Of a stretch of DNA of 64,000 bases, positions 45,993-59,654 are shown piece after piece. The notes under the pieces were generated by a model, which saw only the letters and a list, made by a program, of their open reading frames with translations, was not told the origin of the DNA and did not search any database. Position 1 is the first letter of the stretch, and each line of letters starts with the position of its first letter. This stretch comes from a phage: assembly GCA_024674815.1 (NCBI GenBank), contig GCA_024674815.1_4104.1. One strand, written 5' to 3'. The position numbers and the translations under genes are program-made.

Positions 45993-46412
45993 TCATTTAC
46001 AGTTTTCTATAACTATTGCACGTTTTAGTATTTTACTTTCATAAACATACTTAAGATGACCTTCTTCACGAATACGATTGAACACATATCCTAGTTTATC
46101 TTTTAGTACTGAAGCGGTATCAATGTCAAGATTAACTTCAACCCCTCCTGTTAATTTAACTTTATATGTAAATCTAAAAGCATCACCAGATTCAACCAAT
46201 GGGACTACTTGTTCATACGTATTCAACATAACTCGTTCATCATTAACTAAATTATATATTACTATATCACAAGTTTTTACCCCAATTTCCTCTAATGTAG
46301 GAGCATTATCTACTATAACATCTTTTACTGTATTTGCAACCTGTTTAGCATCTGCTGCATATACATTAAAACTAAAAAGTACTAAAATAATACTTAAAAA
46401 AATCTTTTTCAT
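45993..46412 (-). CDS. secreted protein (139 aa)
   Basis: signal peptide MKKIFLSIILVLFSFNVYA. Confidence 0.6.
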   Translation of the reverse strand: MKKIFLSIILVLFSFNVYAADAKQVANTVKDVIVDNAPTLEEIGVKTCDIVIYNLVNDERVMLNTYEQVVPLVESGDAFRFTYKVKLTGGVEVNLDIDTASVLKDKLGYVFNRIREEGHLKYVYESKILKRAIVIENCK

Positions 46413-46421
46413 TATATATCC

Positions 46422-46745
46422 TTATTTTATTTTACACGTCATATCGGGTTGTGCTTGTTTATTATTTTTAAACGGATTAGGTTTTTTATCTTTCTTTTTA
46501 TCTTTTAAAGGTTTTTTGTCTTCTTTTTTATCTTTATCTTTGTCTTTTTTATTTTTATCAGGTTCAGAGGGAGTATTACATTGTGCTGGGGGTTGATTAG
46601 TTGGAGTACAGCTATTGTCTGATGGGAGTATTACTTCTTTACAATTGTAAAATAGTAAACTTTTATTTGTGGTTAAATTATGAAAACGATAGTTACGTTC
46701 ATTATTATAATAAATTGTTTTAGTACTTTCAATGCCATTGCACAT
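46422..46745 (-). CDS. Cys-containing protein with K/D-rich tail (107 aa)
   Basis: KDKDKDKKEDKK low-complexity tail. Confidence 0.45.
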   Translation of the reverse strand: MCNGIESTKTIYYNNERNYRFHNLTTNKSLLFYNCKEVILPSDNSCTPTNQPPAQCNTPSEPDKNKKDKDKDKKEDKKPLKDKKKDKKPNPFKNNKQAQPDMTCKIK

Positions 46746-46755
46746 TGCTACTGAA

Positions 46756-47007
46756 TCACCGGAACTCTTTTTCTATTCCCATTACATCAGTCTTACGCTC
46801 AGATAGTATACCTGAAGTATATGAATCTTTGTTGTCAAACGCATTAAATCCAATAGTTCTGTCGGTGTCGTGTATTATTCCTTTTGTGTATGAGGTAGTA
46901 TAGAACTCCCCATTTCTGAAATCCTGCCTTGCTACGGAGCAATGATAATCTGCACCATAAGCAGTACTGGAAAATAATACAATTCCAAATATAATATATT
47001 TTTTCAT
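46756..47007 (-). CDS. secreted small protein (83 aa)
   Basis: internal ATG gives signal peptide MKKYIIFGIVLFSSTAYG; longer ORF overlaps terminator. Confidence 0.5.
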   Translation of the reverse strand: MKKYIIFGIVLFSSTAYGADYHCSVARQDFRNGEFYTTSYTKGIIHDTDRTIGFNAFDNKDSYTSGILSERKTDVMGIEKEFR

Positions 47008-47043
47008 TGTAATCCCTCTTCTTAATTCCTCTTTTGTATTTAC

Positions 47044-47073
47044 AAAAAAAGGCTGACCGAAGTCAACCTTTTG
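47044..47073 (-). terminator. UUCG-loop terminator
   Basis: GGCTGACCGAAGTCAACC. Confidence 0.5.
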
Positions 47074-47078
47074 TTTTA

Positions 47079-48356
47079 TCATTTACCGTATTTGCTCATG
47101 ATGTCCTTTTCCCAAGGAGTTACATTTCCATTTTCGTAATCACGGAAAGAGTCATCAAGTGTAGTCAATGCATAATCATATGCCTCACCGGATTCAACAT
47201 CAATATCAACAGCACCATTCACTACATCAGTCCACGCTTTTTGTAGTTTACGAGCGTTGTTACCAACTTTATCTTTAATCCAACTAAGATTTCGGTTTAT
47301 ACTCTTCTTATCAGCACCAGCTTTTTCACCAACATCTGCAACCCATTGCATTAATTTCTGTAGTTCGTTATGGGATTTTTCAGTCATTTGGCGGTCTTGT
47401 GACAGTTCAGCTTCCATGTCATCAATTTCTTCGTCTGAATGAACATCGTTCTGTTCTACTGCACCTTCTTCATCATCACGCATCAGATAACCATCTCGTG
47501 TAACCTTCTCACCATGATCAGCTTCATACTTTTTCATAGTATTGAATGCAGCATCCATTGCAGTTACAAAACGACTCTTTTCACCTTGTACATAAGATTT
47601 AAGTGCATCGTTAACTGCATCAGATACTAATTTAATCTTATCGTCTTTACCTTCCAGACGGTTTTCTAACTTAGCTAGTACATTCTTAACTTTTTGAGCA
47701 TTAGCACGGTCTTCTTTACCAATACTATCAAATGTTTTAAGTACGCTTTCAAGACTTACTTCCTCTTGTGCAGGCACATCACCTTGTTGCGTACCTTCAA
47801 GTGCACGCATTATAGTACTGAATACTTCAGTTGGTTCAGTACTGGTATTTCCACTCATTGCATCAAGCACAGCTTGTGCTTTGACTTTTAATTCTTCTTT
47901 AGGTACAGATTGCAATTCTTTCACAATACCTTGGATAAGTTGTGGTTTATTAGCAAAAATCTTACCTAACTTATCCGACAGTTCTTTGACAGGGTTAACC
48001 GCCTTTGGTGCTTCTTGTTTTGGTTCTTCTTTAGCAGGAGCAGATTTTTCTTTTTCTTCACGTTCCATATCAGCTAGGCGTTGTTTTTGTGTAGCATTAA
48101 GAAGTCCCAATGAATTAACATAACGTAGCTTTTCTAGCTCAGTCATGTTCTCAGTACTCTTAACTTCACCTGCTTCTGCGTTTGCTTTACCAGCTAGACC
48201 AGTTCCTTGGTTACGTGATCCACGTGAACCTTGACCTGCTTGATAACTATTTGGACGGCGGTTGCGTTCACTCCATTTATCAGAGTGACCAGCCATGTTA
48301 CCACCATTTTTATCAGTAAAATTACTTGGCATTTGATTTCTCTCCATAGATTTCAT
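47079..48356 (-). CDS. large Lys/Glu-rich protein with LxSLGLL motif (425 aa), late-expressed
   Basis: TATAAATA late-type promoter upstream; alternative starts at M4/M9. Confidence 0.55.
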   Translation of the reverse strand: MKSMERNQMPSNFTDKNGGNMAGHSDKWSERNRRPNSYQAGQGSRGSRNQGTGLAGKANAEAGEVKSTENMTELEKLRYVNSLGLLNATQKQRLADMEREEKEKSAPAKEEPKQEAPKAVNPVKELSDKLGKIFANKPQLIQGIVKELQSVPKEELKVKAQAVLDAMSGNTSTEPTEVFSTIMRALEGTQQGDVPAQEEVSLESVLKTFDSIGKEDRANAQKVKNVLAKLENRLEGKDDKIKLVSDAVNDALKSYVQGEKSRFVTAMDAAFNTMKKYEADHGEKVTRDGYLMRDDEEGAVEQNDVHSDEEIDDMEAELSQDRQMTEKSHNELQKLMQWVADVGEKAGADKKSINRNLSWIKDKVGNNARKLQKAWTDVVNGAVDIDVESGEAYDYALTTLDDSFRDYENGNVTPWEKDIMSKYGK

Positions 48357-48372
48357 TTTTTCTCTATGTCTA

Positions 48373-48380
48373 TATTTATA
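48373..48380 (-). promoter_or_regulatory. T4-type late promoter TATAAATA
   Basis: exact TATAAATA on minus strand ~17 nt upstream of ATG. Confidence 0.45.
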
Positions 48381-48387
48381 GTATAAA

Positions 48388-48418
48388 GAAAAGGCTGACC
48401 GAAGTCAACCTTATTTTG
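48388..48418 (-). terminator. UUCG-loop terminator
   Basis: GGCTGACCGAAGTCAACC. Confidence 0.5.
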
Positions 48419-48570
48419 TTACTTAGATTGTTCTTGTGCAGGTGGATTTACTTTTTGATCCACTACATAGAATACACCACCAACCAGTACTGCGGCGATG
48501 AGTGCAGCAACTACAAATTTCAAACCTTGCATATATGATACCTCAGTTATATTGAGAATTTATGATACAA

Positions 48571-48600
48571 CAAAGGGCTGACCTTAGTCAACCCCTTTTT
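48571..48600 (-). terminator. terminator hairpin (variant loop)
   Basis: GGGCTGACCttaGTCAACCCC. Confidence 0.45.
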
Positions 48601-48601
48601 A

Positions 48602-48985
48602 TTACTTCTTGAACTTATGTTTTTCACTTTCGATTGCATTCACGATTTCATCATGAATTTTACGAAGATTGTGAGTTTTCTTTAGAGATTCATGTAATGC
48701 ACGGAATGCAGAGTGTACAGTTGCTTTAAAGTGCTCTTTAGGAGTTACTTTAAGTTTCTCGATAATATCACGTACATAGATTGGGTGATCCTCAAACACA
48801 CGATTAAGCTCATGACCTAGTGATTCTAGGCTAAATGCTTTTTCACGGGATGGACGATCATGTGCAAGACTTTGGTCTGGTTTTAGAAGACCTAGTGAAT
48901 CTAGATACTTGTGCTTATGTGCATTGTCTAGACCAGAAATATCAACATCATGTGATGGATCTTTCTTATTCCATTTATCAACCAT
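48602..48985 (-). CDS. hypothetical protein with LDSLGLL motif (127 aa), late-expressed
   Basis: shares YxxSLGLL motif with 47079-48356; TATAAATA upstream. Confidence 0.55.
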   Translation of the reverse strand: MVDKWNKKDPSHDVDISGLDNAHKHKYLDSLGLLKPDQSLAHDRPSREKAFSLESLGHELNRVFEDHPIYVRDIIEKLKVTPKEHFKATVHSAFRALHESLKKTHNLRKIHDEIVNAIESEKHKFKK

Positions 48986-49021
48986 TTTTATAACTCCTAT
49001 AAGAGATAAATTTTACTATAA

Positions 49022-49029
49022 TATTTATA
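49022..49029 (-). promoter_or_regulatory. T4-type late promoter TATAAATA
   Basis: exact TATAAATA on minus strand, AGGAG SD before ATG. Confidence 0.45.
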
Positions 49030-49100
49030 GTTCCGTTGTCATTTATATCGAATGACATAAAACATTATATCATAATAAGAATGGTTGTCCCAAAGTTAAA

Positions 49101-49544
49101 TTAGTACTGATCAAGTTCAGATGTAAAAATGAATGCATCCATGTCTTCCAACGTAAGTTTTAAGTCTGGTACATACTTAAGAATAACGCACTCTGGCTTC
49201 TTAATAGCAGCTTGATAAGCAGCAATGGCAAGGGATTCCAACTGCTGTGCTGTATAATTTTTACGTTCTGCATTAAAAACTTTGTTTTTGATATCACCAC
49301 CTGGGAGTTTTTCAAACTCACGCATAACTGCGGTAAGAACATCGTCAGCAGTGTTACTATATACCCATTGGGGTAATTGCATTACATTATAAATCACACC
49401 ACTATCATCCATCAAAGAGATCCATTTGTACCCATCACTAGCACTGAACAAACGCCCTTTTAGTACTGTGTTATTAGTTAAATTTACAAATGCAAAAATA
49501 TCTTGTTCGTTAAGTTCAATACTATTAACATTTACCCAACTCAT
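49101..49544 (-). CDS. hypothetical protein (147 aa)
   Basis: first ATG; track start is TTG. Confidence 0.5.
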   Translation of the reverse strand: MSWVNVNSIELNEQDIFAFVNLTNNTVLKGRLFSASDGYKWISLMDDSGVIYNVMQLPQWVYSNTADDVLTAVMREFEKLPGGDIKNKVFNAERKNYTAQQLESLAIAAYQAAIKKPECVILKYVPDLKLTLEDMDAFIFTSELDQY

Positions 49545-49557
49545 TACGATTCCCCAT

Positions 49558-50130
49558 TCATAAATCACGAACAATATTCATTAAACACAATTTAGGTTTT
49601 ATAGCATTCAACACCCATATGCATTCTTTGTAAGTAGCTATTATATCATCTAAATGCTCAGTTACAATGCTTTCTTGAAAATATTCTTCATCATTGAGCT
49701 TTGCTAATTTAGTAACATCACACGTAGGCACTATAGGTCTGGATTTTACACCCATTCCATTATTGATATTAGTGAAATGTACAAAATGGTACTTCACAAC
49801 ACCTTTATCTAGATTTATTATACATGACAAATTTTCCAACTCAGTTAGTTTTTTATTACAAGTAACATTAATGAAACCAGCATTATAGGCTCTATAATCA
49901 TCTACTGATATCTCAAAATCATTACGTTCAAATATAAGTGAAATGAGTTGGTCCAGTGGTTTGACATTCATATATTTTAATGAATTTACGTATGATACTT
50001 CAATCTTAGATGAAATTATCTTTTTACTAAGTGCAGTTAATTCTTTGTTAGATTTAACTGTTAAAACAATAGGTTTAAACCTAGAACTTTTGTTCTTTTT
50101 TGATACTTTAAAACGACCTTTACGATTCAT
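49558..50130 (-). CDS. hypothetical protein (190 aa)
   Basis: ATG with GAGGA SD; track start is GTG. Confidence 0.55.
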   Translation of the reverse strand: MNRKGRFKVSKKNKSSRFKPIVLTVKSNKELTALSKKIISSKIEVSYVNSLKYMNVKPLDQLISLIFERNDFEISVDDYRAYNAGFINVTCNKKLTELENLSCIINLDKGVVKYHFVHFTNINNGMGVKSRPIVPTCDVTKLAKLNDEEYFQESIVTEHLDDIIATYKECIWVLNAIKPKLCLMNIVRDL

Positions 50131-50137
50131 AATTTCC

Positions 50138-50359
50138 TCAATTAATAATTTCACATTTAACGTGTGGTTTATATAGCATAATTAACCCATTTTTAAGTAC
50201 AATGATTGTTGCTCTGTTAGTAATCGAAACGTTTTTAATTATACTTTTTTTATATGTTTCAACATATTTCTCTTCATAATTTATACATTTAACATATTCT
50301 TTTTGTTTAGCACTTACAACAGTACTGAATAATATCAGTACAAGTACTATATATTTCAT
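50138..50359 (-). CDS. secreted small protein (73 aa)
   Basis: signal peptide MKYIVLVLILFSTVVSA. Confidence 0.5.
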   Translation of the reverse strand: MKYIVLVLILFSTVVSAKQKEYVKCINYEEKYVETYKKSIIKNVSITNRATIIVLKNGLIMLYKPHVKCEIIN

Positions 50360-50411
50360 TACTATACCTTATAAACAAAAAGGAATTCATTTAAGAATTC
50401 CTTTTTTACAA

Positions 50412-50705
50412 TCATTTATCTAACATACCATTGTGCAAACGTTCATATACTTCAGTTCGACGCAAATTCACAATATCTTCTGCGTATTTTAATGTAAATG
50501 CCCATGCTTTTGGATGTACGTTAAGCTTCATACGAATTCGATTTTTCATCAACTCTCCACTTAAACGAATAAATTCGTGTACACCACGACTACCGTATTC
50601 AGTAATTAAATCATTAATGTACATATCACGAAGAGTTTCATCTGCACATTCTTTAACCATTTCTACGTCAGCGACGATGCTTTCATTAACTGAAGTACTG
50701 ATCAT
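50412..50705 (-). CDS. hypothetical protein (97 aa)
   Basis: ATG ORF. Confidence 0.5.
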   Translation of the reverse strand: MISTSVNESIVADVEMVKECADETLRDMYINDLITEYGSRGVHEFIRLSGELMKNRIRMKLNVHPKAWAFTLKYAEDIVNLRRTEVYERLHNGMLDK

Positions 50706-50717
50706 TTTTAATTTACC

Positions 50718-50984
50718 TTATTTAAATTCGACTGTAATTTTATCACCTTCAACTACGAACTTACAGTTGTAGCGACGTGCCATATCCATGTACATATGCT
50801 CAGAGTACCAAGGAACATCAATAATCGGATGCTCTGCATATTGTAGAACTTCACGGTCGCCCACTGTAGTAATGATGAAAGGAATGTTCATCTCTCGTAA
50901 AAACAGTTCAGCACCAGGAGAACGATTAATAAATTCAGTATCATTACGTAAAGTAAATCCATTATATTGTAATTTAAGCTTCAT
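50718..50984 (-). CDS. hypothetical protein (88 aa)
   Basis: ATG ORF. Confidence 0.5.
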   Translation of the reverse strand: MKLKLQYNGFTLRNDTEFINRSPGAELFLREMNIPFIITTVGDREVLQYAEHPIIDVPWYSEHMYMDMARRYNCKFVVEGDKITVEFK

Positions 50985-50998
50985 ATGTTATCCTCTAT

Positions 50999-51343
50999 TC
51001 AATACCATTCTTTAAAACCATTAAGTTCGGCTACGTGAGTGATTATAACACATATAACATTCAGGTCAAGTATAATTTGATCATAATTTAATTTTATACG
51101 ATCATCATTATATGCTCTAAAAACTACATCGTAATCAAAGAAATTTGCGTTTTCATCATTCATTGAAACGATTCGGTATCTACGTCTTCCATCTGTATTG
51201 AATATAGTTAAACACTGTTGAAACTTTCTCATTAACTGTTTAGATAGGATATTATAATATTCAATATCTTTTTGTGAATTACGTGGGTCATCAGGAAAAT
51301 AGAATGAAACAAATTTCTTTAATTCTATTTGAGTTTTATCCAT
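50999..51343 (-). CDS. hypothetical protein (114 aa)
   Basis: ATG ORF. Confidence 0.5.
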   Translation of the reverse strand: MDKTQIELKKFVSFYFPDDPRNSQKDIEYYNILSKQLMRKFQQCLTIFNTDGRRRYRIVSMNDENANFFDYDVVFRAYNDDRIKLNYDQIILDLNVICVIITHVAELNGFKEWY

Positions 51344-51776: not shown

Positions 51777-51812
51777 AATTAAAATCCTCTAATTTATTAA
51801 GAGAATTATAAC

Positions 51813-51840
51813 AAAAAAGGCTGACCGAAGTCAACCTTTG
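51813..51840 (-). terminator. UUCG-loop terminator/promoter element
   Basis: GGCTGACCGAAGTCAACC. Confidence 0.5.
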
Positions 51841-52022
51841 TTTTGAAGTTCTTGAACTAATTGTCGTACTTCGTTAATATTTTTACACTGCTTTACAGTG
51901 AAGTAATCATACTTACGACCATAGGTTCTTGGGTCATCACCTTCCATATACTGCTGCACATCAAAGATTTGTAAGTAGGGATGCTGCATAACACGAATAT
52001 TATCACTTTGATAAATCAACAT
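51831..52022 (-). CDS. small hypothetical protein (63 aa)
   Basis: first ATG; stop inside terminator hairpin. Confidence 0.35.
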   Translation of the reverse strand: MLIYQSDNIRVMQHPYLQIFDVQQYMEGDDPRTYGRKYDYFTVKQCKNINEVRQLVQELQNKG

Positions 52023-52026
52023 AATA

Positions 52027-52377
52027 TCAATCCTTATATTTACACAAGCCACCAAAACTAGTTTCTTTAGCACCACGACGCATCATAACTAATTTAGCAT
52101 ATTGTGTGCCATTACTATCTTCATATACATCTACTTCAATAAACGCTAAGAAGTTAGGGTCTGTGTCGTTAGAAAACTCAGTGAAGCTAATGTCGCCTAC
52201 TGTATGCTCTTTAACAAACGTATATGATTGTCCATCAATATATACAATATCTCGATCGTCACTATCACCTTGATAGATATGTTTAATATTACCATCTGTA
52301 CAAACTAAACCTTCCAATGGTTCAGCATATGACAATCCACACATTAACATACATACAAAAAATAAAATAATTTTCAT
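52027..52377 (-). CDS. secreted protein (116 aa)
   Basis: signal peptide MKIILFFVCMLMCGLSYA. Confidence 0.55.
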   Translation of the reverse strand: MKIILFFVCMLMCGLSYAEPLEGLVCTDGNIKHIYQGDSDDRDIVYIDGQSYTFVKEHTVGDISFTEFSNDTDPNFLAFIEVDVYEDSNGTQYAKLVMMRRGAKETSFGGLCKYKD

Positions 52378-52379: not shown

Positions 52380-52757
52380 TTATTTTCCTCCAACGTTAAG
52401 TGATTTCTTGTACTGATATTCTTTATAAGTACTATACCATATATCACCAACGTAAATCAAGTACCACGTAGCAGGATAAAGAGCCAATCCAGTACTGATG
52501 TATACGAACTTTTGGTCAAGGACATCAAATACATACAGAAGGAAAGTTACTCCCATAATGCAAGAACAAATTAACCACAAGTTATAAGCAATCGAATCGC
52601 AAGCAAAAATAGAATCAAGCTTAGAAATTAGGACATATTTGTTTGTTAAAATGAAATGAATTACTGCAACTAAACAATATCCTGCCATAAAAATAGAAAT
52701 TAAAAAAGACAGAATAATTGGAATATTCAACAACAAAAGTAAAATAGTGTTTACCAT
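52380..52757 (-). CDS. membrane protein (125 aa)
   Basis: multiple hydrophobic helices. Confidence 0.5.
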   Translation of the reverse strand: MVNTILLLLLNIPIILSFLISIFMAGYCLVAVIHFILTNKYVLISKLDSIFACDSIAYNLWLICSCIMGVTFLLYVFDVLDQKFVYISTGLALYPATWYLIYVGDIWYSTYKEYQYKKSLNVGGK

Positions 52758-52768: not shown

Positions 52769-53128
52769 CTATATTTCACAGTGTAAGTTCAATTTATCTA
52801 TATCTAGGTCACGGCGTACCGATGAGTCCAAGTAAATTACTATATAGATATCACCATTACCAGTTCTTGGGTCTACAATTAATATTACGTTTGCTAATGT
52901 ACCAGAATCATCTCTATAAGTCGAGATTTTTTTATTACCGATAATACTTTCTACTTTAAAACGATAAATCACACCATCAACAACTATATTTTTACCATTT
53001 CTAGGGTCGTTAGTCAATACATGCCACGTTCCCTTAGTACTACGACAATATGTTTCTGCTGCTGCACCATAACTAAAACATGAAAATAATGCACACACAA
53101 GTGCTATTAATTTTATATAACTCTTCAT
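52769..53128 (-). CDS. secreted protein (119 aa)
   Basis: signal peptide MKSYIKLIALVCALFSCFSYGAAA. Confidence 0.55.
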   Translation of the reverse strand: MKSYIKLIALVCALFSCFSYGAAAETYCRSTKGTWHVLTNDPRNGKNIVVDGVIYRFKVESIIGNKKISTYRDDSGTLANVILIVDPRTGNGDIYIVIYLDSSVRRDLDIDKLNLHCEI

Positions 53129-53206: not shown

Positions 53207-53533
53207 TTACATCTTATTCGTGAACTTGAATTTGATAATATCAATCCAAATTTTAACATTTCCTGCAAATAGTGCTTTGATTAGCCACATAATTGCAACA
53301 AAGTTCTCAACTAAATCCAAAGTTTTAACTACTGCACCGAGTGGGAAGATAAAACTCAAAATCCATACAATTACTGAAACCACAACGACTGTATAGAAAA
53401 TACGCACAATCGGTGAATCAAGCATAAACAACTCAGAGAACTCTTTTTTATCATTATCATCAGTAATAAAGCATTCGTAAACCAGAAGCCAAATCAGAAT
53501 TAAAGACGGAATTGAAATTAGTACTGATAGCAT
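53207..53533 (-). CDS. membrane protein (108 aa)
   Basis: hydrophobic helices. Confidence 0.5.
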   Translation of the reverse strand: MLSVLISIPSLILIWLLVYECFITDDNDKKEFSELFMLDSPIVRIFYTVVVVSVIVWILSFIFPLGAVVKTLDLVENFVAIMWLIKALFAGNVKIWIDIIKFKFTNKM

Positions 53534-53591
53534 ATTTTTTTACCTCAAGTTTAAGTGTTAAGTTTCAGACTACAGGAACCATTATACAGTA

Positions 53592-53834
53592 CTACGAACG
53601 TTTGTCAACATTTGTTTCTTCAATAAGCATAAGATAACTTAACACGAAGAGTAATACCGAAATAATATCAATAACTGTAAAGCTCACTGGAATGATAATA
53701 GACACCAGTACTAATGCCACGTTTAGCAAGAATACAGTAGTGAGATCTACCATCGTTCGCCTAGTGGCTAATGCCACTAGTGTAGGATAGAACATAAACA
53801 ATAGTGCAACAACAAAACTTAGTACTAGATACAT
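53592..53834 (-). CDS. membrane protein (80 aa)
   Basis: two hydrophobic helices. Confidence 0.45.
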   Translation of the reverse strand: MYLVLSFVVALLFMFYPTLVALATRRTMVDLTTVFLLNVALVLVSIIIPVSFTVIDIISVLLFVLSYLMLIEETNVDKRS

Positions 53835-54487: not shown

Positions 54488-54519
54488 AAGTATCCTCAGA
54501 TGCAATTTTTTTGATGTGG

Positions 54520-54735
54520 TTATTGTATCAAAGATGTATCGATTTGTACAACATTTATTGTAACTATTTCGTACATATAGTCAGGTGCATTGAACTCAGC
54601 ATACCACTCAATGATCTCACAAGCAGCATCAACTTGGTTGTTCGCATTAACACGTCTTGCATAGGTACTAGACATTTTATATCTACCATTTACATACACG
54701 TTATATACACCATGACACCACCACATCTTAGTCAT
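54520..54735 (-). CDS. hypothetical protein (71 aa)
   Basis: ATG ORF. Confidence 0.4.
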   Translation of the reverse strand: MTKMWWCHGVYNVYVNGRYKMSSTYARRVNANNQVDAACEIIEWYAEFNAPDYMYEIVTINVVQIDTSLIQ

Positions 54736-54946
54736 TTATACTAGGCCATACTTTATATTGTAAGTTCTGGTATTGAAATTTACCAATTTCATTTTTCTTA
54801 CGGAATGATTCATCTACTTGAATTTCCGCATCGTACTGACCATCAGCCTGTACAACGTACTTAAATTCTTCTACGTGTGAAAAACGTTGACCTTCACCTT
54901 CTGGTTTATAGACTTGTACTAAACCTTCAACTAGATATAAATTCAT
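54728..54946 (-). CDS. hypothetical protein (72 aa)
   Basis: ATG ORF. Confidence 0.4.
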   Translation of the reverse strand: MNLYLVEGLVQVYKPEGEGQRFSHVEEFKYVVQADGQYDAEIQVDESFRKKNEIGKFQYQNLQYKVWPSIND

Positions 54947-54949
54947 TTA

Positions 54950-55171
54950 TCATTCCTCATCACTTTCAGTTAGCATAATGCTATGTACAGTTTCCACATA
55001 GCGGTGTGTTTTAGGTGTGTTATACTTTGTAATTTCATCAAACAATTTAAACAGTGCATCTACTTCACTAAGAGCACGAATGAATACATCCATCTTGGTG
55101 ACTACTCTGGAAAACCCGCGTATGTTATTAAATTCAGAGACGTGTTCATACACAACATAGTATCTATTCAT
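54950..55171 (-). CDS. hypothetical protein (73 aa)
   Basis: ATG ORF. Confidence 0.4.
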   Translation of the reverse strand: MNRYYVVYEHVSEFNNIRGFSRVVTKMDVFIRALSEVDALFKLFDEITKYNTPKTHRYVETVHSIMLTESDEE

Positions 55172-55686
55172 ATATTAAAAAGTTCCATGAATTCATTGAA
55201 TAAAGAAGTTCTAATGCACATAACAAATTCAAAATCAACATCTATGGTGTCAAGTAGTTTGAACAACTTTGGTACTAATGGATCATTCACCTCAAAGTTA
55301 TGAATCAAACTTTGTTGAAACACATTTTCTTCAGTACTATAATCAATAACAAAATATTCAGCAATACCAGGTGGTGTATAAACATCATATAAAATATGGC
55401 GGTGATGATTTGTTTTAGAACTAGGGGAATATATAAGTTCTATTTCATAAGATTTATCAGCACTGCGTGCGTAACAAACAATATCAGTACTCGTTATTTC
55501 TGAACCATCACTTCTCTCTGAAAAACAAACATCAGCATAGCGTTTTCCAGAGAGATTCAAAAGGTCATGAGTTGTTTTACCATAACAGAAATCAGTTTCA
55601 ATGCGTATCACATCTTGATATTCAATTGGTCTTGTATCGCGGCGTTCACGATTAAACACTAATTTCAACAACTCATTAATATCCAT
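55168..55686 (-). CDS. hypothetical protein (172 aa)
   Basis: ATG ORF. Confidence 0.55.
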   Translation of the reverse strand: MDINELLKLVFNRERRDTRPIEYQDVIRIETDFCYGKTTHDLLNLSGKRYADVCFSERSDGSEITSTDIVCYARSADKSYEIELIYSPSSKTNHHRHILYDVYTPPGIAEYFVIDYSTEENVFQQSLIHNFEVNDPLVPKLFKLLDTIDVDFEFVMCIRTSLFNEFMELFNI

Positions 55687-55886
55687 TATTTCGCCTCGAT
55701 AACCTTAAGGTTAACAAAATCACCTTTTACTTTCATGCATTTGAATTCAGTGCGAGTTTCATCCCCACTATCGCGAGGCCAATGAGTGGCAGAGTAGCAC
55801 TGGTCTGGTGTTTTATATACACCTTCACCAATAGTACGAGTGATTTCACCATTGGTGAGAACTACTGCGAGATATAAAGTAAACAT
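55686..55886 (-). CDS. small hypothetical protein (66 aa)
   Basis: first ATG; track start is TTG. Confidence 0.35.
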   Translation of the reverse strand: MFTLYLAVVLTNGEITRTIGEGVYKTPDQCYSATHWPRDSGDETRTEFKCMKVKGDFVNLKVIEAK

Positions 55887-56039
55887 GATATTCGCCTTAG
55901 AATAATTTATTAATAATAATAGCACCCAACGCAAGAACTGCAATAATTACAGATACCCACATTACTGCATTCACTGTACCAGTAAGTTCTTTATCAAACT
56001 CCCTGCACTTCTTGCGGTAATCTTCCCACTCTTTGTTAT

Positions 56040-56255
56040 TCACACTGCCACTCCTAATAGGTCGGTAGCTTTCTTGAGTACTACGTCAATGGTTTCCAGT
56101 ACTGCACCTTTGTGTTCAATTGATACAATATTATTATAAGTATCAAGGTCCAAGTACTCCATATATTCAGTTTTGAATACACGAACATCAGTACTAGTGA
56201 TTTTAATATCACAACCTTTATCCCAAATAACCTGCATCATTTCATTGGTAGTCAT
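56040..56255 (-). CDS. hypothetical protein (71 aa)
   Basis: ATG ORF. Confidence 0.4.
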   Translation of the reverse strand: MTTNEMMQVIWDKGCDIKITSTDVRVFKTEYMEYLDLDTYNNIVSIEHKGAVLETIDVVLKKATDLLGVAV

Positions 56256-56530
56256 TATTCAACCTTATCATAAACAAGTTTGTGTGTGCTTAGTACTTTG
56301 TTGTGATGTCCAGGGCATTCATATACATACAATCGCTCCTGTCGTTTTTCCCAACCACCACAGATACGACCTGATTGTGTACATACCTCATACTCGTTAA
56401 TAAAAGACTTACCTGTGAATGTACAATCCTGACGAACTAAGTCTTTTGCACTAAACCTGCCGTCATCATTACATGCTGTAAGAAACATTGTACAGAATAC
56501 AAAGACAACTGTCAATAGTTTTTTAATCAT
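56255..56530 (-). CDS. putative lipoprotein (91 aa)
   Basis: MIKKLLTVVFVFCTMFLTAC lipobox-like. Confidence 0.5.
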   Translation of the reverse strand: MIKKLLTVVFVFCTMFLTACNDDGRFSAKDLVRQDCTFTGKSFINEYEVCTQSGRICGGWEKRQERLYVYECPGHHNKVLSTHKLVYDKVE

Positions 56531-56895
56531 TGAACATCACCCCAACGGAAGCCATTCATATAATTCAAATTCACCTCAACGAGTTCATGTGTTTTTGTAC
56601 ACCAAATTGATAGAGTTTTTGTAACATCACCAGGTGAACTTTCATACTTCACACAATACCCTTCAATGCGAAGAGTTTTGTTAGTCCAATGTTGCCACTC
56701 AATCCAAATTTCATTAGGATAATAAACCATATCTTCCTTGAACCTATGGTATTGATCCATCGGTAAGTGACCTTCAACTTCAATTACTTCAGCACTTCGA
56801 ACAAGTTTGTCAAGCTTGTACTTTATCTCAGCAAGATATTCTTCATCATTCAGACGAGTTAATAAATCTGCTGCACGTGTTGTATCAAGGCTCAT
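56527..56895 (-). CDS. hypothetical protein (122 aa)
   Basis: ATG ORF. Confidence 0.5.
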   Translation of the reverse strand: MSLDTTRAADLLTRLNDEEYLAEIKYKLDKLVRSAEVIEVEGHLPMDQYHRFKEDMVYYPNEIWIEWQHWTNKTLRIEGYCVKYESSPGDVTKTLSIWCTKTHELVEVNLNYMNGFRWGDVQ

Positions 56896-56897
56896 TG

Positions 56898-57143
56898 TTA
56901 TTCTCCATGAATTACGGAAGTGTTGATTCGTGTTTTACCGCTAGTGTATCCAGTACTTGTATTTGCATTAGGACAGTACACAGTGTATAAAGTCGCACCA
57001 GCACCATCTTGTTGCATACGATAAATCTTACACCCTGCTTCTTTTAATTCAGCAGGTAGAACAAAATCACTTGTACGTTCTTTGGTAGAAGCATCACATG
57101 CAGTGAGTAGAAATGCGACGAGTACTGCTACAATGTATTTCAT
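56898..57143 (-). CDS. putative lipoprotein (81 aa)
   Basis: MKYIVAVLVAFLLTAC lipobox. Confidence 0.5.
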   Translation of the reverse strand: MKYIVAVLVAFLLTACDASTKERTSDFVLPAELKEAGCKIYRMQQDGAGATLYTVYCPNANTSTGYTSGKTRINTSVIHGE

Positions 57144-57451
57144 TAACGAACCTCCACTTCTTGAGAAAGAGCATGAGTCAGTGCATTTGAATTCGAACCA
57201 TTCATTTCACGCTGACATACAAACATAATGGCATCTTGTACTGAACCTGCGATTTCATACTCACGACCTTCTGGATCAGTTACCAGATGTTCAACGATAC
57301 AACCACCTCTCAGTACAGAAGCACCAGTACTTACACTAATTTTGTAACCTAAGAAATCAAACTGCATACATGCGTCAGTAGGTTTCATCCAATGACCGCT
57401 GTTTTGATTCAAATCGATGATTACAAAACCTTGAGTGTTAGTTTGAAACAT
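57143..57451 (-). CDS. hypothetical protein (102 aa)
   Basis: ATG ORF. Confidence 0.5.
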   Translation of the reverse strand: MFQTNTQGFVIIDLNQNSGHWMKPTDACMQFDFLGYKISVSTGASVLRGGCIVEHLVTDPEGREYEIAGSVQDAIMFVCQREMNGSNSNALTHALSQEVEVR

Positions 57452-57570
57452 AGTTAATTCCTCATTTAATTTAAAAGGGCGGGAACGCAGTGACGAGTAC
57501 GATTATGCTGTCTTTCCTTTCACTGCATTCCCTTTTATATAAAACATAATACTGCTATTATTCAGTACTG

Positions 57571-57864
57571 TCAATCGATATAAGTACCTTTTTTAACATC
57601 ACAGACTTCTTCCATCCAATGTGGATTTTCGTTTTTATCAGTGAAGATTTGTTCTGCTTCTTCTTTTGTTTCAGCTAGGACAATACGATCCCCTTCATCC
57701 AAATCACGGATACGATACACTTTCAGTTCTTGTTTCTTCTCAAGAATATTACACAGTTCACGTGCTTTTTCTTCATCGCACTTCCCTTCATTAGCATAAA
57801 ACCAAATTGCTTTTTTAATAAGGTCACGTTCTTCTTTAGAAAAAGACATAATATTTCCTATCAT
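57571..57864 (-). CDS. hypothetical protein (97 aa)
   Basis: ATG ORF. Confidence 0.5.
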   Translation of the reverse strand: MIGNIMSFSKEERDLIKKAIWFYANEGKCDEEKARELCNILEKKQELKVYRIRDLDEGDRIVLAETKEEAEQIFTDKNENPHWMEEVCDVKKGTYID

Positions 57865-58018
57865 TTGTTAAAGTGGATTTCGTTTGATATAAACATTATA
57901 CAGTACTGATATCTTATGTCAAGTATTAATCACCAAAAATCATCAGATACCCAAACCAACCCACACAGACGACTAAGCTAACAATACCAAAGACAATCTC
58001 TAAAGTCATGTTGTATCC

Positions 58019-58237
58019 TTAATCAACGATTTTATATTCACGATGACCATAGAATCCAGCCTCAAGGATGCGATTACCATCAGCATCTTCCAAATCCCAC
58101 CCACGGGATGTTTCGGCAATAATAGTCATGATGTGACCTCTTGGGAAAATTCCACTCATGGTGGATACATCTTCAAGTAATTGAACTTTCTTACCAACAT
58201 TGGAATTCGGTTTAAACATTTTATGGCCCTTATTCAT
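58019..58237 (-). CDS. hypothetical protein (72 aa)
   Basis: ATG ORF. Confidence 0.45.
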   Translation of the reverse strand: MNKGHKMFKPNSNVGKKVQLLEDVSTMSGIFPRGHIMTIIAETSRGWDLEDADGNRILEAGFYGHREYKIVD

Positions 58238-58412
58238 TGATCACATCAAGTACTTTATCCAGCTTTTTACCAATGCTTTCCTTTGGTTTCTCACCATTCT
58301 GGAATACATTAGTACTGCAATACTCAGGACGCGTATTAGGAAACTTCTCGTTCATCCAGGAGTGACCGTAAACACCCAGCATGATGCCAACGATAAGAAT
58401 GATAATTTGCAT
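58230..58412 (-). CDS. small membrane protein (60 aa)
   Basis: N-terminal hydrophobic helix; 8-nt overlap with downstream gene. Confidence 0.3.
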   Translation of the reverse strand: MQIIILIVGIMLGVYGHSWMNEKFPNTRPEYCSTNVFQNGEKPKESIGKKLDKVLDVINE

Positions 58413-58427
58413 GATAATTTCCTCTGA

Positions 58428-59216
58428 TTAAATGTTAGTAGTATAGTACTTGATTTCGTTTTGAATTGCAAGTTCTATTTGTTTATTGAAAAGAATTCCA
58501 AACTCTTTGATTGATTCACAATCGAATTCAATAGAAAAAGTATACTCTGGTACACGTACATTGTCAATACCCAAATACTCTTTTATGTAAATTTTAATGA
58601 GTTCACATAGTGCAGTACTAAGACATTGAATTTCAAAATGTTTTGCACCTTTGTCAAAATACTTGAATGCATCAATATCACCCACAATAAAACTATTCTT
58701 TAATGTAGTGAATAGGTTCTCAGGAAACACGGTAATAGGTGACATTGATTTAAGAATGTATGTATCTTTGGCATTCTTAATGTACTCAATGAAGCAGTAG
58801 TTAACGTCAGGCTCGATTGAACGATCCGCGTTATGATACCAGTGTTTAAACTCACTGTATTCAGCAAACTTATGCTGGCGTAATGCGTTACAATCTTCAC
58901 ACAGTGCAGTCATGTTCTCTTTATCATTACCGCCCTGAAGACAGTCCAGTACATTATGGTCTAACGTCATGCGTACAAGGCGTTTCCCTTTAAGTACATA
59001 AGGTCTGAATTTATAACGATCTTTAGTACTGTGCTTGTGTAAAGTGAATACTACATTAGATTCACCGCAACAATCACATTTAAAGCCATCACGTGACATT
59101 ACATGAATGAGTTTTCGAGTATTTGGACCAAACTCTGATTTGGTAATGTTACCTACAATTTCTGATGGTTGGTAATATTTTGAATTCCGTCGAATCAGTT
59201 CATCTATAGTGCTCAT
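58428..59216 (-). CDS. HNH endonuclease (262 aa)
   Basis: CDCCG...LDHNV...GGND..ENMTALCEDCNALR (HNH motif). Confidence 0.6.
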   Translation of the reverse strand: MSTIDELIRRNSKYYQPSEIVGNITKSEFGPNTRKLIHVMSRDGFKCDCCGESNVVFTLHKHSTKDRYKFRPYVLKGKRLVRMTLDHNVLDCLQGGNDKENMTALCEDCNALRQHKFAEYSEFKHWYHNADRSIEPDVNYCFIEYIKNAKDTYILKSMSPITVFPENLFTTLKNSFIVGDIDAFKYFDKGAKHFEIQCLSTALCELIKIYIKEYLGIDNVRVPEYTFSIEFDCESIKEFGILFNKQIELAIQNEIKYYTTNI

Positions 59217-59217
59217 T

Positions 59218-59448
59218 TTACATTAATCCTTCTATGCTACAACCAATAAGTACTTTTTTCACTTCAATAACTCGTACCAAATAGAATCCATTTGAAAAGT
59301 TAAAACTATACATTTGTACTAAGGCATCTGCTTCAGATTTCGCACGGATACATGATAGATAAATTTCACGTATATCACCATCCAACGATACTTGTTTCTC
59401 TGCATTGATGACAATAGAACGAATCTCAAAACGAACGCCATAACTCAT
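59218..59448 (-). CDS. hypothetical protein (76 aa)
   Basis: ATG ORF. Confidence 0.4.
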   Translation of the reverse strand: MSYGVRFEIRSIVINAEKQVSLDGDIREIYLSCIRAKSEADALVQMYSFNFSNGFYLVRVIEVKKVLIGCSIEGLM

Positions 59449-59654
59449 TGAGTTTGTCCTACAATAAGCTTTGTGTTAGTATTACTATTGTAACACCACA
59501 TTTGTTCTTTACTAACTGTAATCCAAATATCTTTGTTTACTTGTTCGTATGTACTATCACGTACTGCTATGCATTGATTCATGGAATTCATTGGGGTTAT
59601 TTGTACACCGGAATTAACAGAGAAAGCGACTACTAAAAAGATTACTGAATTCAT
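59445..59654 (-). CDS. secreted small protein (69 aa)
   Basis: signal-peptide-like MNSVIFLVVAFSVNSG. Confidence 0.45.
   Translation of the reverse strand: MNSVIFLVVAFSVNSGVQITPMNSMNQCIAVRDSTYEQVNKDIWITVSKEQMWCYNSNTNTKLIVGQTQ

What the first reader, a model, noticed from the sequence alone, without database searches (positions are those of the whole stretch)
45993..59654. Cluster of small secreted proteins and lipoproteins
At least eight small ORFs carry N-terminal signal peptides or lipoboxes (9001, 45993, 46756, 50138, 52027, 52769, 56255, 56898, 59445), which is unusual density for a phage early region. Small periplasmic or outer-membrane-targeted phage proteins often modify envelope functions.
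Basis: partly seen in the sequence, partly recalled or inferred. Interest (0 to 1): 0.4.

Follow-up and report, generated by a model that had tools for sequence, protein, structure and literature searches.

The report
Jumbo-phage cluster of exported small proteins
An early-transcribed stretch of a giant E. coli phage genome really does pack seven small proteins that are sent to the host's periplasm or membranes, probably to protect or remodel the envelope of the infected cell, though none has a demonstrated function.

Summary
The window is an Asteriusvirus jumbo coliphage (99.7% identical to phage JP4; PBECO4/121Q group). Between 45993 and 57143, seven minus-strand genes encode small exported proteins: five SPase-I substrates (g45993, g46756 from its internal start, g50138, g52027, g52769) and two lipoproteins (g56255, g56898). 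g9001 is also exported but lies 37 kb away. g59445 is only a weak candidate.

Signal peptides, lipoboxes and every mature-domain cysteine are conserved in orthologs down to about 30-40% identity, and dN/dS is 0.06-0.40. The density is a real local enrichment: 7/37 genes against 1/99 in the rest of the window, genome-wide scan p≈0.002, and T4's densest stretch has 3 per 35 genes. Near-consensus σ70 promoters (18 on the coding strand, about 1 expected) support early expression.

The proteins fall into at least six unrelated families. A confident model of g52027/g52769 is an eight-stranded β-barrel with a β1-β8 cysteine pair, closest to the lysozyme inhibitor PliC, but it lacks the MliC/PliC motifs. 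g56898 belongs to the widespread phage lipoprotein family DUF4884. Its apparent similarity to Llp and Cor comes from the signal peptide alone. Function is inferred: envelope protection or superinfection exclusion.

The parts
45993..46412 (-). g45993, 139 aa, SPase-I exported protein (SP 19 aa, VYA|AD). The mature 120 aa has 2 Cys (C29, C119).
   Evidence: Orthologs in fEgEco12 and JNE01 are about 41% identical, keep signal-peptide features with different sequence, and keep both Cys. dN/dS 0.19-0.36. No PHROG, Pfam or PDB match. The counterpart gp032c was not found in the phAPEC6 virion proteome.
46756..47007 (-). g46756, 83 aa from the internal ATG, SPase-I exported (AYG|AD). The mature 65 aa has 1 Cys.
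   Evidence: The short start has an RBS and lies downstream of the hairpin cassette at 47072-47044. phrog_28901 (unknown function). dN/dS 0.06.
50138..50359 (-). g50138, 73 aa, SPase-I exported (VSA|KQ). The mature 56 aa has Cys8 and Cys52.
   Evidence: Both Cys are conserved in orthologs 29-49% identical. phrog_31284 (unknown function).
52027..52377 (-). g52027, 116 aa, SPase-I exported (SYA|EP). The mature 98 aa is modelled as an 8-stranded beta-barrel with Cys8 on strand 1 and Cys94 on strand 8.
52769..53128 (-). g52769, 119 aa, paralog of g52027, SPase-I exported (SYG|AA). Mature Cys7 and Cys96.
   Evidence: Cross-hits between the two families at 1e-5 to 1e-6 through orthologs and a PHROG cross-hit. 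C, D and C are invariant in alignments A1 and A2. The LFSC pseudo-lipobox is not conserved.
56255..56530 (-). g56255, 91 aa lipoprotein (lipobox LTAC, +2 Asn, so probably sorted to the outer membrane). The mature part has 4 further Cys.
   Evidence: The lipobox and all 4 Cys are conserved in JNE01 (39% identity; LTGC, +2 Asp there). Its start overlaps the stop of the upstream gene. phrog_31263 (unknown function). No BLASTP alignment to T5 Llp. Not annotated in phAPEC6.
56898..57143 (-). g56898, 81 aa lipoprotein (lipobox LTAC, +2 Asp, so probably retained in the inner membrane), with 2 further invariant Cys. Member of the DUF4884 / phrog_902 family.
   Evidence: phrog_902 E=5.7e-7 on the mature part alone; 244 clusters; 123/148 members with a lipobox, 103 of them with exactly 2 more Cys; PF16225 = DUF4884; JNE01 ortholog.
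59445..59654 (-). g59445, 69 aa, weak candidate. It has a conserved short hydrophobic N-terminus without a positive n-region and 2 conserved Cys. It may be an atypical signal or an anchor.
   Evidence: PHROG 37707 models only residues 25-69, so some annotators use a downstream start.
9001..9300 (-). g9001, 99 aa, SPase-I exported (VNA|SL), mature Cys12 and Cys79. It is an outlier 37 kb from the cluster.
   Evidence: phrog_31669 (unknown function).
58230..58412 (-). g58230, 60 aa, N-terminal hydrophobic segment (MQIIILIVGIMLGVYG...). Either a signal-anchor or an uncleaved signal.
   Evidence: Conserved in fEgEco12 and JNE01, weakly in K64-1.
55686..55886 (-). g55686, 66 aa, short hydrophobic N-terminus plus 2 conserved Cys. 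Export is uncertain.
   Evidence: Conserved as far as K64-1. phrog_15821.
52380..52757 (-). 125-aa multi-pass membrane protein lying between the two beta-barrel paralogs.
   Evidence: phrog_31707, unknown function.
53207..53834 (-). Two small 3-TM membrane proteins (53207-53533 and 53592-53834).
47044..47072 (-). Hairpin cassette (terminator fused to a TTGACT -35 box) upstream of the unit g46756-g46422-g45993.
   Evidence: G17 annotates a terminator here.
45960..45988 (-). Hairpin cassette closing the g46756-g45993 unit and lying upstream of the kinase gene.
57895..57922 (-). Perfect sigma-70 promoter (TTGACA-N16-TATAAT), intergenic, upstream of the block that contains both lipoprotein genes.
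53581..53608 (-). Perfect sigma-70 promoter (TTGACA-N16-TATAAT), intergenic, upstream of 53207-53533 and of the g52769 / 52380 / g52027 run.

Best explanation
This stretch belongs to the host-RNA-polymerase-transcribed (early) accessory region of an Asteriusvirus jumbo phage. It has accumulated a mixed battery of small proteins that the Sec pathway exports out of the cytoplasm. Five are cleaved by signal peptidase I and released into the periplasm. Two are lipidated, one probably sorted to the outer membrane and one probably kept on the inner membrane. Several small membrane proteins are interleaved with them. In the oxidising periplasm most of the exported proteins are probably locked by disulfides, typically one bond tying the N- and C-terminal ends together.

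Inferred function: soon after infection they modify or shield the envelope of the infected cell. Possible actions are blocking peptidoglycan hydrolases (the PliC-like barrels g52027 and g52769), or masking receptors or entry routes (the lipoproteins). The effect would be to exclude superinfecting phages or other envelope attacks during the long jumbo-phage cycle.

Shown: gene reality, signal peptides and lipoboxes, cysteine conservation, clustering, promoter enrichment, and the fold of one family. Inferred: actual export, disulfide formation, expression timing, and all functions.
For: - Identity and gene reality; dN/dS 0.06-0.40.
- Signal peptides and lipoboxes, and their conservation despite sequence drift.
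- Cysteines: 6/7 mature domains have an even Cys count of at least 2, against 80/314 small cytoplasmic proteins (p=0.0018). The N-/C-terminal two-Cys pattern occurs in 1/314 cytoplasmic proteins against 4/13 exported ones. All Cys are conserved in orthologs.
- Clustering.
- Early-type transcription signals: 18 sigma-70 matches of at least 11/12 on the coding strand against 1 on the other strand, shuffles mean 1.1. Literature inference for phage CBB.
- Not virion components: the phAPEC6 proteome has only gp035c and gp037c from this stretch.
- Precedents for early exported exclusion factors: T4 Spackle (PMC7677548) and T5 Llp (PMC9586334).
- Gene turnover and a trend to faster divergence than neighbouring genes fit conflict-driven accessory genes.
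Against: - There is no functional evidence at all. Every family is annotated 'unknown function'.
- The lipoproteins show no real similarity to Llp or Cor.
- Expression timing is inferred from promoter sequence only.
- The faster-divergence trend is not significant (p about 0.06).
- Signal-peptide calls are rule-based.
- In phages outside this group the DUF4884 gene also sits among small unannotated genes, not next to receptor-binding genes, so there is no genomic hint of a receptor link.
Confidence: 0.55

Rival explanations
1. Some or all of the exported proteins are lysis-timing components, such as antiholins like T4 RI, spanin-type lipoproteins or lysis-inhibition sensors, and not exclusion or protection factors.
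For: T4 RI is a small exported periplasmic protein and is picked up by the same scorer. Jumbo phages have long latent periods that need lysis control. A periplasmic hydrolase-inhibitor-like fold could restrain the phage's own endolysin.
Against: No holin, endolysin or i-spanin neighbour is present. The genes flanking the two lipoproteins (56527-56895 and 57143-57451) have no TM segment, and the lipoproteins are not proline-rich Rz1-like. A better o-spanin candidate lies elsewhere in the genome (EC22.5-2 141591-141899). The region carries early-type promoters.
Confidence: 0.15
2. They protect the infected cell against non-phage envelope attack, acting as immunity-like proteins against T6SS effectors, colicins or host lysozymes, or they alter host surface properties. 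They would not act on competing phages.
Against: No PADLOC, Pfam or NCBIfam immunity family is matched. The families occur only on phage-sized contigs. A strictly lytic phage gains less from long-term host protection.
Confidence: 0.15
3. The signal peptides are false positives: hydrophobic N-termini arising by chance in an AT-rich genome, on proteins that stay cytoplasmic or membrane-anchored.
For: The rule-based scorer gives many hits on T-rich non-coding frames (15 SPI of 271). It mis-typed T4 Spackle as a lipoprotein. g59445, g55686 and g58230 really are ambiguous.
Against: Seven genes keep n/h/c architecture, cleavage sites or lipoboxes in orthologs whose signal-peptide sequence has diverged. 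h-regions are 11-14 residues, which is signal-peptide length and not TM length. Cys pairing is strongly non-random. Only 18/608 real genes are flagged genome-wide.
Confidence: 0.04
4. They are virion or assembly proteins that happen to have hydrophobic N-termini.
For: Two neighbouring genes (47079-48332 and 48602-48985) are virion proteins by mass spectrometry in phAPEC6.
Against: None of the annotated exported counterparts (gp032c, gp034c, gp040c, gp047c) was detected in virions. Periplasmic export is incompatible with cytoplasmic assembly. Three counterparts were not annotated in phAPEC6 and so could not have been scored.
Confidence: 0.03

Closest known systems
T4 Spackle (gp61.3), periplasmic inhibitor of the tail lysozyme gp5
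   Same: An early gene product with a cleaved signal peptide. It is a small periplasmic protein (about 75 aa mature) with a single disulfide joining N- and C-terminal regions (Cys29-Cys81). It acts on the envelope of the already infected cell to exclude superinfection (PMC7677548). T4 is a distant relative of this phage group.
   Different: Spackle is an alpha-helical bundle, whereas g52027 and g52769 are modelled as beta-barrels. There is no sequence similarity. Inhibition of any lysozyme by the proteins here is untested.
MliC/PliC family and Neisseria ACP (bacterial periplasmic or lipoprotein lysozyme inhibitors)
   Same: An eight-stranded antiparallel beta-barrel of about 90-100 residues, exported, with cysteines on the first and last strands as in the conserved beta1-beta8 disulfide (PMC5507604). 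ACP shows the fold can inhibit lysozyme without the family motifs.
   Different: Motifs SxSGAxY (loop 4) and YxxxTKG (beta6) are absent from all 21 family members at the proper positions. Loop 4 is a 2-residue turn. No Pfam or PDB sequence match. Sequence identity is 3-7%. The family is phage-encoded and restricted to Rak2-like jumbo phages.
T5 Llp (lytic conversion lipoprotein) and T1/phi80 Cor
   Same: Small phage lipoproteins (about 60-70 aa mature) made early, with a Cys pair. A relative's record (fEgEco12) labels the counterparts of g46756, g56255 and g56898 'lytic conversion lipoprotein'.
   Different: There is no homology once signal peptides are removed. The Cor PHROG hit vanishes. The DUF4884 profile against Llp gives probability 0.4%, a score reached by 22/100 shuffles. 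There is no BLASTP alignment for g56255 and no PDB hit. The genes are not next to a receptor-binding protein gene. g56898 has Asp+2, suggesting inner-membrane retention, while Llp acts at the outer membrane. g46756 has no lipobox at all. DUF4884 and Cor coexist as separate genes in phage Henu8.
DUF4884 (PF16225) / phrog_902 small phage lipoproteins
   Same: g56898 is a full-length member, with lipobox, LP.EL..CK.Y and CPN.T.T..GK motifs and two invariant Cys.
   Different: Nothing differs. However, the family has no known function, so membership explains nothing mechanistically.

Membership tests
Sec-dependent SPase-I signal peptide | Positively charged n-region, 7-15-residue uncharged h-region, small residues at -3 and -1, no later TM segment | tested here: met
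   g45993, g46756 (short start), g50138, g52027, g52769 and g9001. The scorer was validated on controls. It is rule-based and not SignalP.
Bacterial lipoprotein (SPase II / Lgt substrate) | Lipobox [LVI][ASTVI][GAS]C at the end of the h-region, with the Cys conserved in orthologs | tested here: met
   g56255 has LTAC (LTGC in JNE01). g56898 has LTAC (LSAC in JNE01), and the lipobox Cys is at least 90% conserved across 61 family members. g52769's LFSC is not conserved, so it is not a lipoprotein.
MliC/PliC lysozyme inhibitors | Eight-stranded antiparallel beta-barrel | tested here: met
MliC/PliC lysozyme inhibitors | Disulfide between strands beta1 and beta8 | tested here: met
   The invariant Cys8 lies in strand 1 (residues 6-10) and Cys94 in strand 8 (residues 90-96). 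The feature is defined in PMC5507604. Bond formation itself is not testable here.
MliC/PliC lysozyme inhibitors | Sequence motifs SxSGAxY (loop 4) and YxxxTKG (beta6) | tested here: not met
   SxSGAxY is absent in 21/21 members. YxxxTKG occurs only in g52769 and one close relative, near beta1 and not beta6, and is not conserved. No Pfam MliC hit at E<=1. No PliC or MliC in the PDB profile search.
MliC/PliC lysozyme inhibitors | Inhibits a lysozyme | not testable with these tools
   Needs purified protein and enzyme assays.
T5 Llp (lytic conversion lipoprotein) | Sequence or profile homology of the mature domain to Llp | tested here: not met
   The Llp sequence was verified against PDB 8a60_B. 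The DUF4884 profile finds no Llp in the PDB. The full-length hhalign probability of 80% falls to 0.4% with mature sequences, a score reached by 22/100 shuffles. g56255 against Llp gives no BLASTP alignment.
T5 Llp (lytic conversion lipoprotein) | Fold similarity to Llp | tested here: inconclusive
T5 Llp / Cor | Gene adjacent to the receptor-binding or tail-fibre gene whose receptor it blocks | tested here: not met
   The neighbours are small hypothetical genes. The same holds for the POP15 homolog. In Henu8, Cor sits by the tail fibre while DUF4884 is in the early arm.
Cor superinfection exclusion protein (phrog_1119) | Profile match of the mature protein | tested here: not met
   E=0.0079 with the full-length protein over residues 1-48. 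No hit at E<=1 with the mature sequence.
DUF4884 (PF16225) / phrog_902 | Profile match over the mature domain, with the shared motifs | tested here: met
   phrog_902 E=5.7e-7 on the mature part. phmmer finds 244 clusters over the full length. The precomputed PF16225 tag is on all 41 relatives, including a 99%-identical one. The local Pfam copy gave no hit.
Rz1-type o-spanin | Lipoprotein gene embedded in or adjacent to an i-spanin gene with an N-terminal TM segment, within a lysis cassette | tested here: not met
   The adjacent genes lack TM segments. No endolysin or holin is nearby.
T4 Spackle | Alpha-helical bundle that binds gp5 lysozyme | tested here: not met
   The g52027 model is all-beta. 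No PHROG or Pfam match to Spackle. Only the functional logic is shared.

The most novel reading that the evidence does not exclude
The g52027/g52769 family would be a phage-borne MliC/PliC-fold periplasmic inhibitor of peptidoglycan hydrolases. That would make it a second, structurally independent invention of the Spackle strategy. It would work alongside the DUF4884 inner-membrane lipoprotein, the 4-Cys outer-membrane lipoprotein and the other disulfide-stapled proteins as a multi-layered early 'envelope lock-down' programme of Rak2-like jumbo phages. DUF4884 would then be a widespread, so far unrecognised, superinfection-exclusion family of large virulent enterobacterial phages.
Probability: 0.2. 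Interest if true: 0.65.

Novelty: new variant of a known kind. Interest (0 to 1): 0.42.

Why it matters
Early exported phage proteins such as T4 Spackle and Imm, T5 Llp and T1 Cor are the classic agents of superinfection exclusion. They are few, and each was found one at a time. No such factors are known for jumbo phages of the PBECO4/121Q/RaK2 group, whose receptors and exclusion mechanisms are undescribed. The papers on JP4, fEgEco12, Sharanji and phAPEC6 do not mention these genes.

This locus offers seven compact, clonable candidates in 11 kb. It includes a confidently modelled lysozyme-inhibitor-like barrel and a member of a 244-cluster lipoprotein family (DUF4884) found in many large virulent phages. 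If any of them excludes phages or inhibits cell-wall hydrolases, that would bear on phage-cocktail design, because it implies interference between therapeutic phages. It would also assign a function to a widespread family of unknown function.

Tried and rejected
1. First greedy ORF caller. It chose a spurious plus-strand ORF (46123-46596) over g45993 and showed high false-positive signal-peptide rates on T-rich non-coding frames. I replaced it with a codon-usage-based caller. That caller still merged the JNE01 g56898 ortholog into a neighbour, which I fixed by direct translation.
2. First version of the scorer. It mis-called LacZ, GFP and RecA and missed the Llp lipobox. I tightened it.
3. One search, protein 8 (g9001 mature).
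4. Cor and TrbK-type weak hits. Rejected as signal-peptide-driven.
5. Llp homology. hhalign gave 80% probability with full-length sequences. Rejected after the mature-only and shuffle controls.
6. g52769 as a lipoprotein. Rejected because the lipobox is not conserved. The same trap mis-typed T4 Spackle.
7. A common origin for all the 'stapled' proteins. hhalign all-against-all gave probabilities below 6%.
8. PADLOC, NCBIfam, Pfam, and PDB sequence searches for g45993, g56255 and g56898. Nothing found.
9. Faster evolution of exported proteins compared with neighbours. Only a trend, p about 0.06.
10. Fold search for g56898. The model was too weak and no hits appeared.

Full report
IDENTITY AND CONTEXT

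The 13.8-kb stretch is 99.7% identical to Escherichia phage JP4 and 97-99% identical to PBECO4, 121Q, phAPEC6, SP27 and G17. These are jumbo myoviruses of the genus Asteriusvirus, in the Rak2-like group. All genes here are on the minus strand, and the deposited records call nearly all of them 'hypothetical protein'. Landmarks are a T7 gp0.7-like protein kinase (45282-45956), two genes annotated as virion proteins (47079-48332 and 48602-48985), an HNH endonuclease (58428-59216) and an RNA polymerase sigma factor (60305-61270).

CHECKING THE OBSERVATION

No signal-peptide predictor was available, so I wrote a rule-based scorer. It checks n-region charge, an uncharged h-region of at least 9 residues, the -3/-1 rule and the lipobox. 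I tightened it until ten textbook E. coli or T5 signal peptides were typed correctly and five cytoplasmic N-termini were not called. On phage T4 it flags Spackle, RI, the o-spanin PseT.2, imm.1, vs and vs.1, and leaves lysozyme e, RegA and RIII unflagged. It does mis-type Spackle as a lipoprotein because of an LASC string inside its signal peptide. Genes were called with a codon-usage log-odds model after a first greedy caller failed.

Seven genes between 45993 and 57143 carry strong export signals:
- g45993: VYA|AD.
- g46756: AYG|AD, but only from the internal start at 47007. The longer ORF runs through a terminator hairpin, and G17 and fEgEco12 annotate the short form.
- g50138: VSA|KQ.
- g52027: SYA|EP.
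- g52769: SYG|AA.
- g56255: lipoprotein, LTAC with Asn at +2.
- g56898: lipoprotein, LTAC with Asp at +2.

g9001 is an eighth good one, but it lies 37 kb away. g59445 is weak: it has no positive n-region and no clear cleavage site. g55686, g58230 and the 37-aa gene at 48419 have hydrophobic N-termini of uncertain meaning. Five multi-pass or tail-anchored membrane proteins are interleaved with them.

ARE THE SIGNALS REAL?

I compared the syntenic loci of relatives at about 84% (fEgEco12), 72% (JNE01) and 69% (Klebsiella phage K64-1) DNA identity.
- Orthologs keep the n/h/c architecture and cleavage sites even where the signal-peptide sequence has changed. The g45993 orthologs, for example, start MLKVIFRSISSLLLMISSVCYA|NE and MKKTILSVIGAVLFMVTSVASA|AT.
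- Both lipoboxes are conserved.
- The LFSC string of g52769 is not conserved, so that protein is an SPase-I substrate.
- Every cysteine of the mature domains is conserved.
- Six of seven mature domains have an even Cys count of at least 2 (excluding the lipid Cys), against 80 of 314 small cytoplasmic proteins of the genome (p=0.0018).
- A 'terminal staple' pattern occurs in 1 of 314 cytoplasmic proteins against 4 of 13 exported ones. The pattern is exactly two Cys, one near the mature N-terminus and one within six residues of the C-terminus. g9001, g45993, g50138, g52027 and g52769 all show it (g52769 once its curated cleavage site is used).
- dN/dS is 0.06-0.40 for all but one saturated comparison.

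These are real, constrained genes whose products are very probably exported and disulfide-bonded.

IS THE DENSITY UNUSUAL?

- Within the window: 7 of 37 genes in the region against 1 of 99 outside (Fisher p=4.5e-4).
- Genome-wide: in a complete, unannotated close relative (EC22.5-2, 351,992 bp), 18 of 608 called genes have a signal peptide without later TM segments, and 7 of those lie in the 11.4-kb counterpart of this region (hypergeometric p=2.3e-5). A permutation scan statistic reaches 7 in 35 consecutive genes in 45 of 20,000 shuffles.
- T4 benchmark: the same pipeline gives a similar overall rate (7/279), but never more than 3 per 35 genes.

The enrichment is genuine and moderate.

IS IT AN EARLY REGION?

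Sigma-70-type matches of at least 11/12 are 18 on the coding strand against 1 on the other strand in 34-64 kb. Composition-preserving shuffles give a mean of 1.1 and a maximum of 4. Two of the matches in the finding's range are perfect TTGACA-N16-TATAAT promoters in intergenic gaps (57922-57895 and 53608-53581).

A repeated cassette fuses a GC-rich hairpin and T-run to a promoter whose TTGACT -35 box lies inside the stem. Two copies bracket the unit g46756-g46422-g45993. The CBB paper infers that the equivalent region of that related phage (RpoD-like promoters, short ORFs, sigma factor) is the early host-takeover region (PMC5259590). No transcriptome exists for this genus in the library I searched, so the timing remains inferred.

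WHAT ARE THE PROTEINS?

Pfam, NCBIfam and PADLOC give nothing above threshold, and PHROGs gives only families of unknown function. Profile-profile comparison finds no relationship among the families (all below 6% probability). The exception is g52027 and g52769, which are paralogs. The cluster is therefore an accretion of at least six unrelated families and not a duplication array.

Content varies between relatives. fEgEco12, JNE01 and K64-1 carry an extra exported gene between the two virion-protein genes. JNE01 lacks g46756. K64-1 keeps only the barrel pair plus the ambiguous small genes. Exported proteins tend to be more diverged than their neighbours (median identity 69% vs 85%, and 49% vs 63%), but p is about 0.06.

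In the phAPEC6 virion proteome, only gp035c and gp037c from this stretch were detected, and none of the four annotated exported counterparts. Three others were not annotated in that record.

THE BARREL FAMILY

The g52027/g52769 family comprises 20 clusters, all on jumbo-phage-sized contigs or fragments. AlphaFold2 with a 21-sequence alignment gives pLDDT 85.2 and pTM 0.75, with eight beta-strands.

The literature defines the MliC/PliC fold as an eight-stranded barrel with a conserved beta1-beta8 disulfide, plus the motifs SxSGAxY (loop 4) and YxxxTKG (beta6). ACP has the fold and the disulfide but not the motifs, and it still inhibits lysozyme (PMC5507604). Here the invariant cysteines fall on strand 1 and strand 8, but both motifs are absent and loop 4 is a two-residue turn. 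Sequence-profile searches do not find PliC or MliC. So it has the same fold class and the same disulfide position, but it is not a family member. Hydrolase inhibition is a hypothesis only. In BFVD the fold recurs only in uncharacterised phage proteins.

THE LIPOPROTEINS

g56898 belongs to a large family. An exhaustive phmmer search finds 244 clusters at the 50% level, mostly 75-90 aa. 123 of 148 members carry a lipobox by my scorer, and 103 of those have exactly two further Cys. The shared motifs are LP.EL..CK.Y and CPN.T.T..GK. Precomputed tables tag the family PF16225 = DUF4884, though the local Pfam copy does not hit it.

Named members come from jumbo phage EJP2, from phages of about 141-153 kb (A7_1, A73, UPEC06, Pectobacterium POP15) and from T1-like Henu8. 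In Henu8 it coexists with a separate Cor gene.

The fEgEco12 record labels the counterparts of g46756, g56255 and g56898 'lytic conversion lipoprotein'. I tested that label and found no support:
- The Cor PHROG hit disappears when the signal peptide is removed.
- The DUF4884 profile does not find Llp in the PDB. The Llp sequence was verified as 8a60_B.
- A full-length hhalign probability of 80% collapses to 0.4% with mature sequences, a score reached by 22 of 100 shuffles.
- g56255 gives no alignment to Llp.
- g46756 has no lipobox at all.

The AF2 model of g56898 is weak (pLDDT 67) and finds nothing. Asp at +2 suggests inner-membrane retention by the established Lol-avoidance rule. Asn at +2 in g56255 suggests the outer membrane, and its JNE01 ortholog has Asp.

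INTERPRETATION

The best-supported reading is an early-expressed, fast-turning-over set of envelope-directed accessory proteins. By analogy with T4 Spackle (an early, periplasmic, single-disulfide inhibitor of the tail lysozyme; PMC7677548) and T5 Llp (an early lipoprotein that inactivates the receptor from the periplasmic side; PMC9586334), they probably protect or seal the envelope of the infected cell. The barrel pair is the most concrete candidate, as a possible hydrolase inhibitor.

Rival readings are lysis-timing proteins, immunity against non-phage attack, prediction artefacts, and virion components. All are less well supported, and the first two cannot be excluded without experiments.

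NOVELTY

The kind of thing, early exported phage proteins acting on the envelope, is well known. The families here are not members of the known ones. The density is unusual. A PliC-like fold in a phage-encoded exported protein was not found in the literature I searched. The published descriptions of JP4, fEgEco12, Sharanji and phAPEC6 do not discuss these genes. I rate it a new variant of a known kind, of moderate interest, mainly as a compact set of testable candidates.

Noticed in passing
window 38689-38717, 40107-40134, 41389-41420, 45960-45988, 47044-47072, 48389-48412, 48572-48600, 51813-51839 (minus strand); variant hairpin at 60276-60299: A repeated intergenic cassette: a GC-rich hairpin AAAGG(G)TTGACTTCGGTCAGCC(C)TTT, then a T-run, then TATAAT about 17-18 nt after a TTGACT that lies inside the stem. 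It is a fused terminator and sigma-70-type promoter. The same element matched a GAP32 'terminator' and a CBB 'redundant repeat' in a distant-mode search, so it is conserved across Rak2-like genera.
   Followed up: partly
window 43228-43255, 53581-53608, 57895-57922 (minus strand): A second promoter family: about 34 nt of conserved sequence containing a perfect TTGACA-N16-TATAAT.
   Followed up: partly
window 35377-37816 and 43901-44936 (minus strand): Tandem arrays of seven and three paralogous small (104-123 aa) proteins, nearly all with three predicted TM segments. They match only PHROGs of unknown function. Together with the exported cluster, a large share of the 34-64 kb early arm is envelope-directed.
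   Followed up: partly
window 39047-39827: Four tandem direct repeats of about 175 nt at 192-207 nt spacing, 79-91% identical. Their nature is unknown (small repeated ORFs or regulatory repeats).
   Followed up: no
window 47079-48332 and 48602-48985 (minus strand): Two proteins detected in phAPEC6 virions (gp035c, gp037c) are encoded inside this early-type region, each bracketed by the hairpin cassettes. Their translations share motifs: YVNSLGLLNATQ / YLDSLGLLKPDQ and IVKELQSVPKEELKV / IIEKLKVTPKEHFKA (read). They might be paralogous injected or internal proteins. The larger one varies in length between relatives (417 to 606 aa).
   Followed up: partly
window 46422-46745 (minus strand): A 107-aa protein with an extremely K/D-rich low-complexity C-terminal half (…DKNKKDKDKDKKEDKKPLKDKKKDKKPN…) and no signal peptide. 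It sits between two exported genes in the same cassette-bounded unit. No PHROG hit.
   Followed up: no
L015 (phAPEC6 MK817115) gaps at locus 6859-7306, 10354-10624, 10994-11240; L001 (JP4) 3857-4183: Annotation inconsistencies. phAPEC6 does not annotate the counterparts of g52769, g56255 and g56898. JP4 and phAPEC6 annotate g46756 from the upstream start, which hides its signal peptide and runs over a terminator.
   Followed up: yes
L011 (fEgEco12 PP777464) 923-1174, 11612-11887, 12249-12500: Three genes are labelled 'lytic conversion lipoprotein'. The first has no lipobox, and none shows homology to T5 Llp once the signal peptide is removed. This is probably an automated label driven by the signal peptide.
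   Followed up: yes
L011:2839-3135, L012:3210-3503, L013:4584-4886 (minus strand): The relatives carry an additional exported protein of about 98-100 aa, with the same N-/C-terminal Cys pattern, between the two virion-protein genes. This window has no counterpart there, which is evidence of gene gain or loss at the locus.
   Followed up: partly
T4 NC_000866 19758-20051 (L016): T4 Spackle's signal peptide contains a canonical lipobox-like LASC (Cys15) upstream of its AMA|G site, so rule-based lipoprotein callers mis-type it. T4 also has a run of tiny predicted membrane or periplasmic ORFs (ndd.2-ndd.6) below my 35-aa cut-off.
   Followed up: no
BFVD hit A0A097EXD3 (Escherichia phage 121Q, 93 aa): Another 121Q protein, with 18% identity, has a predicted structure similar to the g52027 barrel (TM 0.66-0.70, E=7e-3). 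I did not determine which gene of this genome it corresponds to.
   Followed up: no
EC22.5-2 (OR845138) 125104-125337, 141591-141899, 328336-328791: Other exported candidates elsewhere in the genome: a 77-aa protein with an ILCGC lipobox-like site, a 102-aa proline-containing lipoprotein (ISGC) that could be the o-spanin, and a 151-aa SPI protein (VHA|EE).
   Followed up: no
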